NCBI RefSeq assembly: GCF_041248615.1
Contig: NZ_CP158425.1
DNA: 64,000 nt
Direction: 5' to 3' (one strand)
DNA from: Escherichia coli
GTDB taxonomy: Bacteria; Pseudomonadota; Gammaproteobacteria; Enterobacterales; Enterobacteriaceae
Below, piece after piece: positions 6,001 to 24,000 of this stretch. Within the stretch, counting starts at the first letter, position 1. Every line of letters begins with the position of its first letter. A program made the position numbers.

Positions 6001-9000
6001 GATCCACATGGATGGGCAATTCTAAGCCGCAATAATGCTCACTTGGATGAGCTAGAAAGTTTGATCGAACAGCCAGTAATTCGTTACGGAGGTAAATCAT
6101 TCTGGGATGAAAAAGAAACAAGCGATGTGTTAAGCCTTATGGCCTTTTTCCGACAATCAAATGATCCTCGCTTAATGAAGAGAGTATTGGCATTGTTTGG
6201 AGAACAGGAATCAGTTTTGGATGATGTGGCATTGAGTATGAGAGGAAGAAAAGTTACTTTTGGCGACCTTGCCATCCCGGAGGACAGTTCTCTCGAAACA
6301 AAAACATTACATTCAAACTTCGTGCGCTTTACCCAGGAAAGTACTGATAAAGTTGAGATAGCAAAACGTTTCGCCAACCTTACGAAATGGATGGAATCGT
6401 CGTCAATCAAGATGAGGAGTAATAAAGGTACAGCAACCTTAACAAAAATTGCTTTAGACACTTGTAAACAGTGGGCAGAAAAGACTGGTTGGATGAATAT
6501 GATCAATCGTGCTGCTGCAATGTCATTAGGCCCTAGGAAGAAGGACGAGGAATACAGCCCAGAGAAAGTAGTCCTATCAACCTTGCATGGTTCAAAGGGT
6601 CTTGAGTGGAATAAAGTAATAATAATGAGTTGTAATGCGGATCAGATACCAAGTAAAAGATCAGTTGGGGAGGAGGCAATAGAAGAAGAAAGACGTTTGC
6701 TTTATGTTGGATTTACGCGTGCAGAAAAGCAACTTTTTGTAATGTGGTATGGTGACCCTTCTTTCTTTTTAAGAGAATGCAGTGAAGAAAAGATAAAAGA
6801 AGCAGCTAATATTCGAATTTCTCCAGTTTATACAGAATAATTCGATATGGGCATTTACTTATGCTTAAAGCTATAGTATAAAAACAATGAGCTTAAATAT
6901 CAGCTCCCAAATTTGAGTAACTTTGCTTAAAGTTACTTTCGCGTTAAGCGTTGATTTAGCCGTGAAAAGCGGCCAGCTTAAACAAGCTGTAAGACACCAC
7001 CGGCAAAATGTCACCTTTGTCGCTGGTGCACTTCCCATGCCTGAAAAAGGCAATCTGAATTTACCAAACCGTAACTAATTTAGCTCCTCCTGGAGCTATT
7101 TTTGTTGCGTACTTCTAATGCCAGATAGTATAAATCAGGCGGTTCATAGCTTACGGGAGATGAATGACAGGCTTTGCCTTCGTGTTGAAACAAAAAATTG
7201 TTTCTTCCTTCTTACTATATATAGGTGACCCCAAATGTCTAAAAATAAAGCTCGCAGTAAAGCCCTTCATCAAACCTTTAGTGAAATTATTCCAGAGATG
7301 GATAAGGCGCTAAACAAACAGCTCTTAGAAGTTCTGATGAAATATACAGAACGTGATAATGAACTGATTGTTATTTTGAATGAGGACGGCCCAAATATCA
7401 TTGAACTTAAGTCTCTTAAGCCTGTGTCTTTGTTGGCCGAAAAGCTTTCTGCTTATTCAAGCTATTATCATGTGGATGTTGTGGAGCTCGTGGTCAAGAA
7501 AATTGATTTCGAAGGAGCTTATAAGCTTCTTAAAGCTTCCCCAGATGTACCACTTTTTAAAAGCTTAACTGAACTGGATAAATATCTTGTTGAGGAGTTT
7601 GAAAAATACGGATTAAATTCATTTCTTGACGTGGATAATCTGGATTACTCACTTGAAAAAGCCAGTGAACTCAAAAATGAGCAGTTAATAAATTGGGTTT
7701 CGGACATCATTTGCAAACGTGAAAAATTAACTTTACGTAAGCGTTTTGATGTCGCAGTAAAGGCCCACTACGAAAATGTAGAAAAAATGTATGATACCAT
7801 TCGTCCGTTAATGAAAAAACTGGGTTTCCCAGAAGATCTCATGACGCACACCTTTAGTGAGTTAAGCGTTTTTGAAACTAAAGGATGGGACCATGCAATA
7901 AAATCGAAAATTGAGACTCTCGCTAAGCGTGAAACTCAATATTTAGATGATGCGGCTAAAGCAGAGAATCGACGTCTTGTAACAGAGAAGTTGGAGAACT
8001 CTTTAGCGATTGCACCAACTAAACCAACAAGAAATTGGTTACATATTGCCGGAATTGCCTGTTTGGTAGTCTGCACGTTCATGTATGTAACTAATAAATT
8101 TATTTAATCCTGTTAAGGGGGAACCCTAACGGGGCTTCTCTTTGAACAAATCGAGGAGCGGAAAATGTCATATCTTGAATATATCAATGAAGTAAAAGTG
8201 TCCGGGATAGTTATCAGTGCTGTGGAGAAAAAAATGACTGACCAGAGTATAGGTTTGTTAATAAAGCTCAAAAATAGGATGAAGACAGAAGTTGATGGTG
8301 AAATCACTGAGAGAGAATTTTCAGTTCAAATCAAGGTGTCGCCTGAAATGTATTCAACCTGTTTCACTGGTATAAATCAGGGTGATGAGTTGATGGTCTC
8401 CGGTTATATTGTTGTCGATACTATTATGATTGAAGGGAGAGAACATCCTCTTGACTACATGAGAGTGGTAGCAACAAGTAAGTTGGCTCACATACCTAAA
8501 CCTCTAAAAGGTTTTGGACAAAGTAGCTTTAATCAGATCTGACATTAAACCCACCCTAAAGGGGAGAAATCCCTTCATGGGATTTCTCCTTTTGGAGTCC
8601 CCATGAAACAAAAATTTAGGGCTACTGCAATAAGTAGTAATCAACTTAGTTTTTTTTCTATACTCGATATAGATGAAGATGAAATAACGCAAATAGTTGA
8701 TTCACCCAAAGAGCATTTAAATGATGCTTACACGTCCGGATTAAACTTTAAATCAGAAGAAAGTAACATTTCTGAGATAAATTATGATTCTGAAAGGCGT
8801 GAAAATCACCTTTATGAAAAATCCAAATTACTTAAAAATCAGATTTTGCATACAATTAATTTTGCAGCAGAAACAGATTATCTATATACGGTTGAAGAAT
8901 ATAACCCAGATTTGGGTGGTCTGGTAATAGAATGGACCCCTGAGGATGTGTATGTTGTTTTTCTATCCGCTATGGAAGAGTCTTTGGAAATCATTAAAGA

Positions 9001-21000: not shown

Positions 21001-24000
21001 AATGCTGTTGATTTATATGTCGATAGTATCTCTGAGAATGAAATAGAAGCTTTAAACAGAGAATCTTTAAAATCGCGACTCTGTTACTTTCTTGAGGTGT
21101 TTGACGCAGTCTCTGGTCAGTACCTTGAAATTTCAGGAAAACACTTTGCAACTAGTCGTTTTGAATATGATGATGTTTGTAGTGAAGTTCTTAGCATGTC
21201 TAATGATGTTTCTCAGTCGAAAGGTTATGACCGGGATGAATATAACAGACTGATGCAGGTTGATGGTCAGGTTATGATTGCCCGTTTTGCTTTGCAACAG
21301 TTCTGGGATACTCATTTTATTGGACTAATAACATTTGTATCTGAGTCTATAACATCGAGCCTCTATAAAGCTTATGAAACTTTTAGTGATATTAGTTTGG
21401 CTTGCTATAAACTGAGTGAATATTCTTATTCACGCTCTATCAACAGTGAATTGACCCTTAATATTTCACTTAAAGAAAATGACTTCTGTGAGGACCTATC
21501 TGATTGCTATATGGAAGATGAGGCTTTACCTTCTGGTAGGGTAATTTCTCGACGCAACAATGACTCCATAATAAGTATTTATGAGAGCTATGCTGCGGCT
21601 TCTTATATTCCGATGATTGCATCTTTGGAAGTCGTTGATGAATACGGCGAAGTGGTTACTGACCTCTGCCATACCGTTTATGTTTCAGAGTTAACCGGTG
21701 GGCGGATTAAAATCCACGACCGTAATGACTTAGTATCTGAAGTTTTCGATAACCTAAGAAATTTAAATCTTGCAGTTGGAGATTCAGTTTCACAAGCTGC
21801 TTGATTCTTTCCCTGATTTTGATTTTTTCTCACATACTCTTATGGCACGGTTTCCGTGCCTTTTTTTGCCTCGCTTACAAGCGTCTACTCCTCTTCTACC
21901 TATCCCACCTTACATCACCACTTAAAATCTATCTTTCTAATTCCATTATCCTTTTCGTAGCCTCTAATGCTCTGGTATGAACATACTCTTTAAACTCAAA
22001 AAAGTGCTATTAACGAAAAAAAATCCCTAAAGAGATTTGTATACTGTTCTCAACCAAGGAGAGCTCATGAATGAACTAAAATCCAAAAACGAGAACAGTA
22101 CCAAAAGCAACTTTCCCCCGGTTGATAATCAGTTTTGCTTTTACCATGTTGATTTCAGCATAGAACGACTACTTTCTACGGCCGAGGATCTCCAGCTTGA
22201 GTACATCTTCCAGAAACCTGGAAGTGAAGTAAGAAAGGATTTGGTTGAGCGATTTGAACGTGGAGAGCGCTTTGTTACAGCTTCACACTGTGACAATTTC
22301 TGTGAAATCCTTGGTTGTCAAGGCCATCAGGAAAATGCATAAACCCATAAACCTACATTTCCACTTTTAAGGATGTTCACTAAAGAATGATTGGAGAAAG
22401 TATTTTTGACTGGGTAATTTACGGAATATCCATTTTGATATTTGCCTCAGCACTAATTGAAGGAAAGACAACTCGCTACCCAGCACTTTTTTTCTATGGG
22501 AGTTTAATTTTAATGTTAATCCTGATAGTTGCTGGAGGCCTTAACTGGTGGTTCTACAGGTCAAAATATGGCGCAGTAATCGTTATCTTCACAGTGGTTT
22601 CTTTACTGATGACTCGATTCCGCCTGGTCATATATAAATTAAGATTAAGAAAGTTAGTTTCAGAGATCAGATTTCGTATAAAAACGGGTTTTCGTATAAT
22701 TCTTGTTTTGTCGGATAATGAGGATGAGCGTAATGTTCTGCTGTCTATGCTTAGCAACGTATTGCCAGAGCAAACGCTTATTCACACGCGTGATGCTCTC
22801 GGACCTCATTCAGGGCCTATCCTAAAAGCTCTTGAGCTACATCATCAACAGGGAACAGGTTACATACTCGTCTGTGAACAACAAATCTCAGCGCGTACGT
22901 GGTTGAGTATCGTAGAAAATGGGAAACCTGATACATCTATAGCTGTTAATTTTCATTCGATCCCAGAAATGGAGTGATTTTTCAATGAGTAGAACCGTTT
23001 CACAAAGTGTCACAGAAGATTGTCTTTTTGATACCCGCACACAAGTCAGATTACAACTAAGTCGAAGCGTTCATAAAACGCTGGCATCTGCTAAAGAAAT
23101 TTTACAGGGAAGGGGGGTTGATTCGGTCTCTATTGAAGATCTTGTGCGAGCCTGTCTTGAAGAGAACCAGCCAATTGATCTCGCCTCACTTTACCTTGAA
23201 AATCTCTTAAAACAGAAAGGTACCAGCATTTGCGATTTTTAGTGTTTTCAAACCTATTAGATAAAATGCCGGTTGTGTTTATATAACATCAATAATTTCA
23301 TGCAACAGGTAAAACATGAGTACTCAAAAGCAACTTTCCAGAACAACCGGCACTGAACGTATGTTTAAGGAAGAGCTGGCGTTATCCTTAATTTGTTGGG
23401 TTTTCACCAGTCCATTTACCAACTGGACCGATAAAGTCTTCAGTGGTATTGAAGTTCCGTCTGAAGGACCGTCAACATTACTGGGTGAGGCTGAAAAATT
23501 CTTTCGTTTTGTCGTTAATGAAGAAGGCTACGACGCAGGAAGGGCTGCTCTTGGTCTTGACCTATGTTGTTTTTCACTTCCGTCGTGTTTGTTCCCGGAC
23601 GCTGCCCTGTCTGAGGAAGAGGTTATGAGTAAGTTAACCGGAGAAGTTATCCATGGGATTCTTCTTTCCTTACCTGAATTTATTGATATGCCAGAAGTGC
23701 TCGCTTACCAGGTCAGGGATGAAATTCTTGCTTTTAACACTCGCTGTGGAGACGGGATCTTTCATGGTTGGAACACGGCTTCAGAATTGTGGAAGTTTGA
23801 AATCTTTCCCCGCACCACCATCATGATGCAGCATACTTCGGCAATACATTAAAATTAGGCGGGGCAGAATGCATAAAAAACTTTTTCTTCTCGAATGGAA
23901 ACCCTGTCAGAGCCGCGTATGGGCCGGTTGGATGGCCCTGTGGTTGACTATCAGTTTTCTGATGTTATCTGCCTTGCTTATGACAGATCATCTCCTGAAC

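What the first reader, a model, noticed from the sequence alone, without database searches (positions are those of the whole stretch)
8562..21867. Recurrent GC-rich intergenic hairpins with shared cores punctuate almost every gene of the AT-rich block
Between nearly all plus-strand genes from about 8.1 to 21.9 kb there is a GC-rich palindrome embedded in AT-rich DNA (e.g. 8562-8593, 11014-11054, 12213-12254, 14304-14332, 14589-14603, 15939-15960, 17694-17730, 18695-18730, 19683-19719, 20796-20810, 21844-21867). Several share the core GGGAGAAATCCC or its complement (8562-8573, 18703-18730) or the GGGAAG/CTTCCC theme. Some have clean T-runs and some do not. The 18695-18730 element offers two mutually exclusive stems, an attenuator-like arrangement. 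Together this looks like a repeat family that both terminates and insulates single-gene units, possibly with regulated read-through.
Basis: seen in the sequence. Interest (0 to 1): 0.4.

Follow-up and report, generated by a model that had tools for sequence, protein, structure and literature searches.

The report
Repeated mRNA toggle switches between plasmid genes
The GC-rich hairpins between the genes of this IncHI2 resistance plasmid are real: about a dozen copies of a conserved ~60-base RNA module that can fold in two exclusive ways, one hiding and one exposing the next gene's ribosome-binding site, so they look like translation switches more than plain stop signals.

Summary
The window is an IncHI2 mcr-1 plasmid. 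The block at 8.1-21.9 kb holds two backbone operons: 7235-15927, which matches the R27 cluster R0002-R0204 that is induced at 25 C, and 16198-21804.

Thirteen of 15 gene starts in the block have an exceptionally structured 70-nt leader (z -3 to -9.4), against 1 of about 50 other genes in the window.

Eight junctions share one architecture of alternating triplets, CCC-GGG-CCC-GGG-CCC-SD. These give three mutually exclusive helices:
- **X**: the 5' hairpin.
- **Z**: pairs the Shine-Dalgarno (SD) sequence of the next gene.
- **Y**: an X-loop "decoy" pairs the anti-SD strand, and is often followed by a T-run.

Four more junctions are looser versions. X+Z is the default fold.

The architecture persists in IncHI1 (about 75% nt identity) and in pNDM-MAR-type plasmids (proteins about 40% identical, spacers unalignable), with compensatory changes.

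Masking only the first strand lowers the predicted cost of opening the ribosome-binding site (RBS) by 5-9 kcal/mol.

Only about 40% of copies carry a terminator-grade U-tract, and the nine genes of the first operon are co-induced. Termination at every gene is therefore not supported.

Best reading: intercistronic translation toggles, probably thrown by the upstream ribosome, with conditional termination as a side or rival function. No Rfam family matches and I found no prior description.

The parts
8108..8164 (+). IGR1: loose two-hairpin module. The second hairpin GCTTCTC/GAGGAGC pairs the SD of gene 8165.
   Evidence: CM hit of 16 bits. Conserved in IncHI1.
8551..8602 (+). IGR2: canonical triplet module, a Y-default variant. 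X 8554-8581, Y 8561-8589, SD 8594-8597, ATG 8603.
   Evidence: CM 40 bits.
9581..9637 (+). IGR3: looser two-hairpin module before the AAA ATPase gene.
   Evidence: Relay valley at about 9 nt masked. Weakest in long context.
11005..11064 (+). IGR5 toggle: X 11008-11035, Y 11015-11046 followed by T8, Z 11036-11064, SD 11055-11061, ATG 11065.
   Evidence: A compensatory change in Z between HI2 and HI1.
12210..12269 (+). IGR6 toggle: X 12213-12238, Y 12220-12248 followed by T6, Z 12239-12269, ATG 12270.
14295..14359 (+). IGR7 toggle: X 14298-14325, Y 14305-14337 (no U-tract), Z 14326-14359, ATG 14360.
   Evidence: An extra A in the other IncHI2 lineage would pair the bulged T that my hand pairing places in Y.
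14587..14694 (+). IGR8 composite. It has a hairpin at 14587-14604 and a long, roughly 30-bp hairpin at 14615-14680. A closing helix pairs CTCTTTCTT with the SD region of the toprim gene.
   Evidence: The 5' arm is nearly identical in pPMK1-NDM.
15937..15959 (.). Strong bidirectional intrinsic terminator that ends operon A.
16128..16197 (+). IGR9 module in the 5' leader of the first gene of operon B. X is CCATAACGG/CCGTTATGG and Z is ATGCTC/GAGCAT.
   Evidence: In pPMK1 the orthologous element is intercistronic (P9). A possible leader ORF lies at 16056-16166.
16740..16797 (+). IGR10: loose module. X is CCCTGATG/CATCAGGG and Z is GGCCTC/GGAGGC.
17684..17746 (+). IGR11 toggle (the best example): X 17687-17714, Y 17694-17723 followed by T7, Z 17715-17746, SD 17734-17742, ATG 17747.
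   Evidence: Triple covariation GATCAC/GTGATC/GATCAC versus GATTAC/GTAATC/GATTAC. Also.
18695..18750 (+). IGR12 toggle: X 18698-18721, Y 18704-18730, Z 18722-18750, ATG 18751.
19674..19737 (+). IGR13 toggle: X 19677-19704, Y 19684-19714 followed by T5, Z 19705-19737, ATG 19738.
20786..20847 (+). IGR14 toggle: X 20789-20818, Y 20795-20825, Z 20819-20847, ATG 20848. It lies about 110 nt after the upstream stop codon.
21844..21860 (+). Intrinsic terminator that ends operon B.

Best explanation
The elements are cis-acting modules of the polycistronic mRNAs of two IncHI backbone operons, one module in front of almost every internal gene.

Each ~60-nt module is a chain of alternating C- and G-triplets that can form three helices, not all at once:
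- **Default state: X plus Z.** X is the 5' hairpin. Z pairs a pyrimidine strand (the anti-SD) with the Shine-Dalgarno sequence and spacer of the next gene. That gene's ribosome-binding site (RBS) is therefore closed, and no terminator is present.
- **Alternative state: Y.** The apical part of X is a near copy of the SD-plus-spacer (a decoy). In Y it pairs with the anti-SD strand, which frees the real SD.

The switch from X+Z to Y becomes favourable when the first strand of X (the ACCC-N3-4 segment) is made unavailable.

The most likely agent is the ribosome finishing the upstream gene, or sliding on after termination. If so, the module is a relay for translational coupling. It opens the next RBS about 50 nt away without the terminating ribosome blocking it.

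In the copies where Y is followed by a U-tract, the same event could also cause partial, ribosome-induced termination if RNA polymerase is still at the site.

Shown here: the structures, their exclusivity, their conservation and covariation, their strand and location specificity, and the predicted energetics of the relay. Inferred: that RNA folding controls translation in vivo, and the identity of the trigger.
For: **1. Location and strand.**
- Covariance model R1 gives 40-61 bits on the + strand at eight junctions.
- The same sites score 20.5 bits or less on the - strand.
- No hit below E = 0.2 lies elsewhere in the 238-kb plasmid.
- Every module ends 3-8 nt before an annotated ATG.

**2. Default fold.**
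- X+Z is the MFE in 25 of 28 copies.
- Pair probabilities are 0.71-0.98 in a +/-200-nt context for the eight canonical modules.

**3. Energies.**
- Means are X -17.3, Y -16.4 and Z -10.0 kcal/mol.
- Shuffling only the X loop weakens Y to -11.1 kcal/mol, so the loop is complementary to the anti-SD strand.

**4. Conservation.**
- The same architecture is present in IncHI1 (L002, L004), in R27 and in pNDM-MAR-type plasmids, whose proteins are about 40% identical and whose spacers cannot be aligned.
- At IGR11 three segments change together, keeping both Y and Z. IGR5 has a compensatory change in Z.
- Pair counts on alignment A4: X+Z is 77.8% paired against 68.2% in shuffles (0 of 500 shuffles as high). 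Y is 77.5% against 68.9% (0 of 500).

**5. Relay test.**
- Masking a short stretch after the upstream stop lowers the predicted cost of opening SD..+12 by 5-9 kcal/mol, within a narrow window.
- With everything upstream of the anti-SD strand shuffled and Z left intact, the drop is about 1.2 kcal/mol. The observed drop is reached in 0-5% of shuffles for 10 of 13 modules tested.

**6. Variants between the two IncHI2 lineages.** Seven variants fall in modules, and only one clearly breaks a pair of X+Z.

**7. Operon behaviour.** The nine genes of operon A are co-induced in R27 (PMC7366339).

**8. Precedents.**
- The RNA-unfolding model of coupling, including rpmI-rplT with a +52 nt spacing (PMC12548453).
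- Ribosome-induced relief of an attenuated intergenic terminator in mccA-mccB (PMC4231749).
Against: - **Geometry.** A ribosome with the stop codon in its A site covers only about 9 nt beyond it (my knowledge of toeprint and footprint data). The predicted opening window lies at 6-12 nt for only 4 of 10 HI2 junctions. It lies at 12-18 nt for several others, at 24-28 nt for IGR6, IGR10 and the IncHI1 copies of IGR12, and IGR14 sits more than 100 nt from the upstream stop.
- **Modest sequestration.** SD sequestration in the block is only modestly stronger than in other genes of the window. P(SD unpaired) is 0.30 against 0.42, and the opening cost is 9.6 against 7.8 kcal/mol (p about 0.03).
- **One module sits in a 5' leader** (IGR9), not between genes.
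- **U-tracts are unexplained.** The conserved U-tracts after Y in four junction sets are not explained by translation control alone.
- **Alignment bias.** The covariation counts were made on an alignment fitted to the model. For Y, one slid control (-1) scores as high as the structure itself.
- **Prediction only.** All structures are predictions. No probing, reporter or 3'-end data exist for these sites.
Confidence: 0.45

Rival explanations
1. Conditional (attenuator-type) or leaky intrinsic terminators are the main function. Y plus its U-tract terminates transcription and X is the antiterminator. Read-through is regulated, for example by the upstream ribosome as in mccA-mccB, to set a gradient of expression along the operon.
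For: - X and Y are mutually exclusive, and Y is a 11-14 bp GC-rich stem.
- At least 5 T in the 6 nt after Y in 11 of 26 copies. This is conserved across lineages at IGR5, 6, 11 and 13 and in pPMK1 P9 (segments).
- At IGR5 the T8 run is the loop of Z and is not needed for pairing.
- The simple scan flags 11015-11045 and 19691-19709 as terminator-like.
- There is a precedent for ribosome-induced termination in an intergenic region (PMC4231749).
Against: - Four of eight canonical junctions lack a U-tract in every lineage.
- The default fold excludes Y.
- Nine genes are co-induced 5- to 23-fold in R27 with no steady fall in signal along the operon.
- Real strong terminators exist separately at the operon ends.
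- This view does not explain why the 3' strand always pairs with the SD, or why that pairing covaries.
Confidence: 0.2
2. The fold logic is the same three-helix toggle that opens the RBS, but it is thrown by a trans-acting factor rather than by the upstream ribosome. The factor would be an RNA-binding protein or small RNA, from the plasmid or the host, that captures the shared 5' ACCC(A) strand. This would make the two operons a post-transcriptional regulon, possibly tied to the low-temperature transfer programme of IncHI plasmids.
For: - The first strand is the most sequence-conserved part across non-homologous junctions. The consensus is nnACCCA, with C4-C6 at least 90% conserved.
- Modules far from any stop codon (IGR6, 10, 14, and the IGR9 leader) cannot be reached by a terminating ribosome.
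- The operon is part of the 25 C-induced set in R27.
Against: - No candidate factor was identified.
- No RNA-binding protein family was recognised among the 10 block proteins scanned (7235-18679).
- The conserved CCC may simply be the partner of the conserved GGG.
- The predicted structures do not change between 15 and 50 C.
Confidence: 0.15
3. The elements punctuate the mRNA for stability or processing. Hairpins would act as barriers to 3' exonucleases, or as protective 5' hairpins after endonucleolytic cleavage in the AU-rich spacers, giving each cistron its own half-life. Pairing with the SD would be secondary.
For: - X is a stable hairpin (-17 kcal/mol) directly after an AU-rich spacer.
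- The homologous operon of an Aeromonas plasmid carries a different repeated module of UUCG-tetraloop mini-hairpins before many genes. That suggests a shared need for structured punctuation.
- IGR8 has a roughly 30-bp hairpin of the size RNase III substrates have.
Against: - A stability hairpin needs neither the decoy/anti-SD complementarity nor the conserved SD pairing.
- X and Y are 11-15 bp, which is short for RNase III (my knowledge of typical substrates).
Confidence: 0.1
4. The elements act at the DNA level, as cruciforms, single-strand initiation sites, recombination sites or integron attC-like cassette boundaries.
For: - Palindromes lie between nearly all genes.
- A tyrosine recombinase gene lies 5 kb downstream.
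- A primase-like gene is in the block.
Against: - Gene order is the same in HI1, HI2 and pNDM-MAR types, so there is no cassette shuffling.
- No attC R''/R' core sites are present (read from the sequences).
- The model is strongly strand-specific, and G-U pairs favour the + strand RNA (mean MFE -28.9 against -26.5 kcal/mol).
- Every element is anchored to an SD and an ATG.
Confidence: 0.03

Closest known systems
RBS-sequestering structures of translationally coupled gene pairs (RNA-unfolding model: rpmI-rplT, phage MS2 coat-lysis, f1 VII-IX, atpHA)
   Same: The downstream SD is paired by default. Translation of the upstream cistron is thought to remove the inhibitory structure. A spacing of about +50 nt, as in rpmI-rplT, lets the RBS open without steric block (PMC12548453).
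   Different: Here the inhibitory strand lies in the spacer, not inside the upstream ORF. A third helix and a decoy copy of the SD relay the signal. The device is modular and repeated at about twelve junctions of two operons.
Ribosome-controlled intergenic terminator of the microcin C operon (mccA-mccB)
   Same: An intergenic terminator is held off by pairing with upstream sequence, and ribosome occupancy restores it (PMC4231749). The X/Y topology is the same.
   Different: That is a single site with an efficient terminator and no RBS-sequestering third helix. Here only about 40% of copies have a good U-tract.
Classical attenuators and riboswitch expression platforms (sequestor / anti-sequestor / anti-anti-sequestor)
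   Same: The logic of nested, mutually exclusive helices is the same.
   Different: No leader peptide with regulatory codons and no conserved ligand-binding aptamer is present. The modules sit between genes rather than only in a 5' leader.
Leader-peptide coupling in plasmid replication control (IncI-alpha/IncB repY-repZ, R1 tap-repA) and hok mRNA refolding (from my own knowledge, not tested here)
   Same: These are plasmid mRNAs in which translation or processing upstream refolds the RNA and exposes a sequestered SD.
   Different: They are single, specialised loci controlled by antisense RNAs. They are not a repeated family.
PeSL cassettes of T4-type phages and RNase III sites of the T7 early region (the PeSL paper PMC2839356 appeared but was not read; the rest is from my own knowledge)
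   Same: Structured elements punctuate nearly every gene of a block.
   Different: PeSLs combine a stem-loop with a promoter, and promoter-like sites are not enriched here (31 against 46.5 expected). T7 sites are helices of about 20 bp or more cut by RNase III, whereas X and Y are 11-15 bp.

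Membership tests
Intrinsic (Rho-independent) terminator | GC-rich stem-loop | tested here: met
   X averages -17.3 and Y -16.4 kcal/mol.
Intrinsic (Rho-independent) terminator | U-tract immediately 3' of the stem | tested here: inconclusive
   At least 5 T of 6 after Y in 11 of 26 copies (the IGR5, 6, 11 and 13 sets, and P9). Absent at IGR2, 7, 12 and 14 in all lineages (segments).
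Intrinsic (Rho-independent) terminator | The terminator hairpin is the fold that forms when the U-tract is made | tested here: not met
   X lies 5' of Y, shares strands with it and is part of the MFE in 25 of 28 copies. Y forms only if the first strand is masked.
Intrinsic (Rho-independent) terminator | Transcript ends at the site, with a drop in downstream RNA | not testable with these tools
   Only indirect evidence exists: nine R27 genes are co-induced across eight junctions (PMC7366339). No 3'-end data were available.
Transcription attenuator | Mutually exclusive antiterminator and terminator helices | tested here: met
   X and Y share the G2, C3 and G4 strands.
Transcription attenuator | A sensor (leader-peptide ribosome, protein, tRNA or ligand) that chooses between the helices | tested here: inconclusive
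   The upstream stop lies 1-10 nt from X at about half of the junctions and 20 to more than 100 nt at the rest. No aptamer family matches.
Translational coupling by RNA unfolding | SD/start of the downstream gene is base-paired in the default fold | tested here: met
   Z pairs the SD in the canonical modules, with compensatory changes at IGR5 and IGR11. The strength is modest compared with other genes.
Translational coupling by RNA unfolding | A ribosome on the upstream ORF can reach a strand whose capture opens the RBS | tested here: inconclusive
   The predicted opening window is at 6-12 nt after the stop for W1, W3, W5 and W13, at 12-21 nt for others, and at 24 nt or more for IGR6, IGR10 and the IncHI1 copies of IGR12; IGR14 was not scanned because it lies about 110 nt from the upstream stop.
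Translational coupling by RNA unfolding | Downstream translation depends on upstream translation | not testable with these tools
   This needs reporter fusions or ribosome profiling.
RNA thermometer (fourU/ROSE type) | The SD helix melts over the physiological temperature range | tested here: not met
   The predicted unpaired probability of the SD window (-13 to -5 of the ATG) is flat from 15 to 50 C for seven modules.
Integron attC / cassette array | R''/R' core sites and a variable cassette order | tested here: not met
   No GTTRRRY cores are present (sequences). Synteny is conserved in three plasmid lineages.
Any curated RNA family (Rfam 15) | A match at or near the gathering score | tested here: not met
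   There are 0 hits at gathering thresholds in the window. Only irrelevant weak hits appear at E <= 1 in 6.8-22.2 kb.
RNase III processing site (T7 early type) | Helix of about two turns (about 20 bp or more) | tested here: not met
   X and Y are 11-15 bp. Only the IGR8 hairpin at 14615-14680 reaches about 30 bp.

The most novel reading that the evidence does not exclude
The modules are a self-contained, portable relay for translational coupling. A decoy copy of the SD, held in a hairpin, is released when a ribosome (or a dedicated factor) captures a short C-rich strand. That opens the next gene's RBS 50 nt downstream. The device has been copied to every junction of two operons and kept through the divergence of the IncHI1, IncHI2 and pNDM-MAR plasmid lineages. 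In effect it would be a natural, modular operon-wiring part, possibly also acting as an operon-wide post-transcriptional gate in the temperature-dependent transfer programme.
Probability: 0.3. Interest if true: 0.7.

Novelty: new variant of a known kind. Interest (0 to 1): 0.5.

Why it matters
IncHI plasmids carry mcr-1, typhoid multidrug resistance and NDM genes. The two operons involved are conserved backbone genes of unknown function: CobS-like ATPase, DUF3150, CobT-like VWA protein, primase-like protein and others. In R27 they are among the genes most strongly induced at the transfer-permissive temperature.

A repeated, conserved RNA switch in front of each of these genes would mean their output is set after transcription, gene by gene. 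That gives a concrete handle for studying them, through junction reporters and compensatory mutants.

More generally, a compact three-helix relay that works over about 50 nt bears on the open question of how translational coupling operates across long spacers. It could also serve as a design for synthetic operons.

Tried and rejected
- **RNA thermometer.** Predicted SD accessibility does not change between 15 and 50 C.
- **Small upstream ORF starting at the NTG of the c/G4 junction.** ATG, GTG or TTG there is expected about 75% of the time from the conserved TGGG. The start is not conserved (CAG or ACG in IncHI1 IGR5). The frames that stop at the main ATGA occur no more often than chance (read).
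- **Integron attC-like cassettes.** There are no core sites and synteny is conserved.
- **Gene-plus-spacer duplication as the source of the family.** Only p19738 and p20848 are clear paralogues (27% identity). Most junctions flank unrelated genes.
- **Known RNA families.** No hits.
- **Promoters inside the spacers (PeSL-like).** Promoter-like sites are fewer than expected.
- **Wider phylogenetic sampling.**
  - The genome-contig scan returned only two loci, both close to lineages already in hand.
  - Two further PLSDB loci were near-duplicates.
  - The Aeromonas relative lacks the module altogether.
- **Stronger constraint between the two IncHI2 lineages.** The SNP density in modules (7 in 837 nt) is no lower than in coding sequence (90 in 12,453 nt). 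Only the placement of the variants in unpaired positions is suggestive.
- **Technical notes.**
  - Locus L003 never reached the script machine and was refetched as L004.
  - In one search the rows A11 and P9 used placeholder bases for the first codons and must be ignored. One search repeats them with the real sequence.

Full report
**Source and context**

The 14 kb around the finding is 100% identical to the IncHI2 plasmid p14408_M1 (NZ_LT599829.1). It is at least 99% identical to more than 1,100 other IncHI2 plasmids. Window position equals record position minus 32,000.

The block follows trhU, trhN and trhI. It consists only of + strand genes:
- three hypothetical proteins;
- a CobS-like AAA ATPase;
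- a small ORF;
- a DUF3150 protein;
- a CobT-like VWA protein;
- a 73-aa ORF;
- a primase-like toprim protein;
- six further hypothetical proteins.

Strong plain terminators at 15937-15959 and 21844-21860 divide the block into two units, 7235-15927 and 16198-21804.

By gene order, the first unit is the R27 cluster R0002, R0001, R0210...R0204. Gibert et al. (PMC7366339) reported this cluster as nine genes of unknown function induced 5- to 23-fold at 25 C relative to 37 C.

The statistics are as follows.
- The 70 nt upstream of 13 of the 15 starts between 8165 and 20848 have MFE z-scores of -3 to -9.4. Only one of about 50 other genes in the window reaches -3.1.
- Terminator-like sites in 7-23 kb number 26, against 9.9 +/- 3.5 in shuffles.
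- The shared 12-mer GGGAGAAATCCC is at 8562-8573 and 18719-18730.

**Anatomy**

Folding each spacer shows more than single hairpins. After the stop codon and a short AU-rich spacer comes a hairpin X, and then a second hairpin Z. The 3' arm of Z is the Shine-Dalgarno (SD) sequence of the next gene, and Z ends 3-8 nt before its ATG.

Eight junctions (IGR2, 5, 6, 7, 11, 12, 13, 14) fit one pattern of alternating triplets: C1 (ACCC), G2 (GGG), C3 (CCC), G4 (TGGG), C5 (CCC, usually followed by T), then the SD.
- X pairs C1 with G4, and G2 with C3.
- Z pairs the strand around C5 with the SD and spacer.
- A third helix, Y, pairs G2 plus the loop of X with the strand around C5, and pairs C3 with G4.

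X and Y share strands, and so do Y and Z. The module therefore has two states: X+Z or Y.

Because the same strand pairs with the X loop in Y and with the SD region in Z, the apical part of X is a near copy of the SD plus spacer. At IGR11, for example, it is GGGGATCACA against GAGGATCACATG.

IGR1, 3, 9 and 10 are looser two-hairpin versions. IGR8 is a composite with an inserted roughly 30-bp hairpin. IGR4 and IGR15 have nothing comparable.

A plain triplet pattern matches six times in the 64-kb window. All six are on the + strand in the block.

**Energetics**

Over 26 copies the mean energies are X -17.3, Y -16.4 and Z -10.0 kcal/mol.
- X+Z is the MFE in 25 of 28 copies.
- X+Z persists in a +/-200-nt context, with pair probabilities of 0.71-0.98 for the eight canonical modules.
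- Shuffling only the X loop weakens Y to -11.1 kcal/mol. The loop is therefore selected to match the anti-SD strand.
- The + strand folds somewhat better than the - strand (-28.9 against -26.5 kcal/mol).

**Conservation**

IncHI1 plasmids (L002, L004; about 75% nucleotide identity) keep every module, with changes that preserve the pairing.
- The clearest case is IGR11. GATCAC, GTGATC and GATCAC in IncHI2 become GATTAC, GTAATC and GATTAC in IncHI1. One change in each of three segments keeps both Y and Z intact.
- IGR5 has a compensatory change in Z.

In pPMK1-NDM, a pNDM-MAR-type plasmid whose DUF3150 protein is about 40% identical, the spacers cannot be aligned. Even so, four junctions show the full triplet architecture and two more show the two-hairpin form.

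Covariance model R1, built on 28 copies, gave these results:
- 40-61 bits on the + strand at the eight IncHI2 junctions, and 27-59 bits at the corresponding junctions of the other plasmids;
- 20.5 bits or less for the - strand echoes in the IncHI2 plasmid (up to 27 bits in the IncHI1 loci);
- no hit below E = 0.2 outside the block in the whole 238-kb plasmid;
- the modules are also found in R27;
- no hits in the homologous operon of an Aeromonas plasmid.

On the model-guided alignment A4:
- X+Z is 77.8% paired, against 68.2% in shuffles;
- Y is 77.5% paired, against 68.9% in shuffles;
- for both, 0 of 500 shuffles reach the observed percentage paired, the observed cells with changes on both sides, or the observed covariation score.

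Two caveats apply. The alignment is fitted to the model, and one slid control for Y scores equally.

Between the two IncHI2 lineages, seven variants fall in modules. One clearly breaks an X pair and none breaks a Y or Z pair. One inserted A would pair the T that my hand pairing of Y at IGR7 leaves bulged. SNP density is no lower than in coding sequence, so this is weak evidence.

**What the switch would do**

I computed the free energy needed to open the RBS (SD to +12) while forbidding pairing of the first N nucleotides after the upstream stop.

For nearly every module the cost falls by 5-9 kcal/mol in a narrow window. That window corresponds to masking C1 and the next few bases. The cost rises again once the decoy is also masked.

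With everything upstream of the anti-SD strand shuffled and Z kept intact, the fall is about 1.2 kcal/mol. The observed fall is reached in 0-5% of shuffles for W5, W6, W11, W12, W13, A11, P9, B5, P5 and P6, but not for W2, W7 or A13 (ignore rows A11 and P9).

The modules therefore have a specific, built-in relay property. Capture of the first strand converts X+Z to Y and frees the SD.

**What throws the switch is not settled**

A terminating ribosome covers roughly 9 nt beyond the stop codon (my own knowledge of toeprint and footprint data). The opening window is positioned as follows:
- 6-12 nt at four IncHI2 junctions (IGR1, 3, 5, 13);
- 12-21 nt at IGR7, 11, 12 and several IncHI1 copies;
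- 24-28 nt at IGR6, IGR10 and the IncHI1 copies of IGR12;
- IGR14 lies about 110 nt from the stop.

IGR9 sits in a 5' leader. In pPMK1, however, its orthologue is intercistronic, 8 nt after the toprim stop. In IncHI1 and IncHI2 a possible leader ORF with a conserved start ends 2 nt before C1 in L004, inside the X 5' arm in L002, or at the X/Z junction in the window. I regard this as suggestive only.

Post-termination sliding, a trans-acting factor binding the conserved ACCC(A) strand, or 5' processing would produce the same refolding.

A simple thermometer is excluded by prediction.

**Termination**

Y followed by at least 5 T of 6 occurs in 11 of 26 copies. It is conserved across lineages at IGR5, 6, 11 and 13. 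At IGR5 the T-run is the loop of Z and is not needed for pairing, so a terminator role there is plausible.

Several points argue against termination as the general function:
- Four of the eight canonical junctions never have a U-tract.
- The default fold excludes Y.
- The nine genes of the first operon are co-induced in R27.

The microcin C operon is a precedent for an intergenic terminator that is held off by upstream pairing and restored by a ribosome (PMC4231749). The same trigger could therefore give both partial termination and RBS opening.

**Comparison and novelty**

The logic is that of RBS sequestration relieved by upstream translation, the RNA-unfolding model reviewed in PMC12548453. 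It is combined with attenuator-like alternative helices.

What differs from known cases:
- the inhibitory strand lies in the spacer rather than in the upstream ORF;
- a decoy SD and a third helix relay the signal;
- the device is modular and repeated at about twelve junctions;
- it is conserved across deeply diverged IncHI lineages.

No Rfam family matches, and my literature searches found no description of these elements.

I classify the finding as a new variant of a known kind.

**Confidence**
- About 0.85 that these are functional RNA structures.
- About 0.6 that RBS control is their main role.
- About 0.45 for the full statement with the upstream ribosome as the trigger.

Noticed in passing
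window 14615-14680: A long (~30 bp, with internal loops) hairpin lies in the spacer before the toprim/primase-like gene, enclosed by a helix that pairs CTCTTTCTT with that gene's SD region. Its 5' arm (TTCTGCGTTGTGGGTTTCTC) is identical in pPMK1-NDM, although the flanking proteins are only about 40% identical. It could be an RNase III-type site or an independent regulatory RNA.
   Followed up: partly
window 15959-16006: A perfect 16-bp inverted repeat (GGTTATCTTATCAATA ... TATTGATAAGATAACC) with a 16-nt AT-rich spacer. It directly abuts the bidirectional terminator 15937-15959 and lies upstream of the second operon. It looks like an operator.
   Followed up: no
window 16056-16166: A possible 36-codon leader ORF (MLAQLNKCAVLLAMVGCMTW...) lies upstream of gene 16198. 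Its start and first 20 codons are conserved in IncHI1. Its stop falls at different points of the toggle in the three lineages: before C1, inside X, or at the X/Z junction. There is no clear SD and no clear coding signature.
   Followed up: partly
L008 (Aeromonas media pAeme5), e.g. 15160-15200, 17410-17445, 18475-18510: The homologous toprim/AAA/DUF3150/VWA operon of an Aeromonas plasmid has a different repeated spacer module: AATCCTTCGGGATATGACGCCTTCGGGCA. This forms two or three UUCG-tetraloop mini-hairpins just before the SD of many genes.
   Followed up: partly
window 7235-15927: By gene order, this nine-gene operon equals the R27 cluster R0002-R0204. That cluster is reported as the most strongly cold-induced non-tra cluster of R27 (up to 23-fold at 25 C against 37 C) and has unknown function.
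   Followed up: yes
window 13020-13400: The VWA (CobT-like) gene contains a highly acidic low-complexity stretch with short tandem repeats (GAGACC GAGACC GATACC GATACC GATACC near 13084-13115).
   Followed up: no
window 19674-19740 and 20786-20850: The toggles before the paralogous genes 19738 and 20848 look roughly 70% alike by eye, while the two proteins share only 27% identity. Either the spacers are under stronger constraint or they have been homogenised.
   Followed up: partly
window 30827-35900: mcr-1.1 is flanked by two ISApl1 copies (a composite transposon). It is followed by a PAP2 phosphatase gene and the tellurite-resistance (ter) clusters at about 35-53 kb. These are GC-richer cargo next to the AT-rich backbone.
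   Followed up: no
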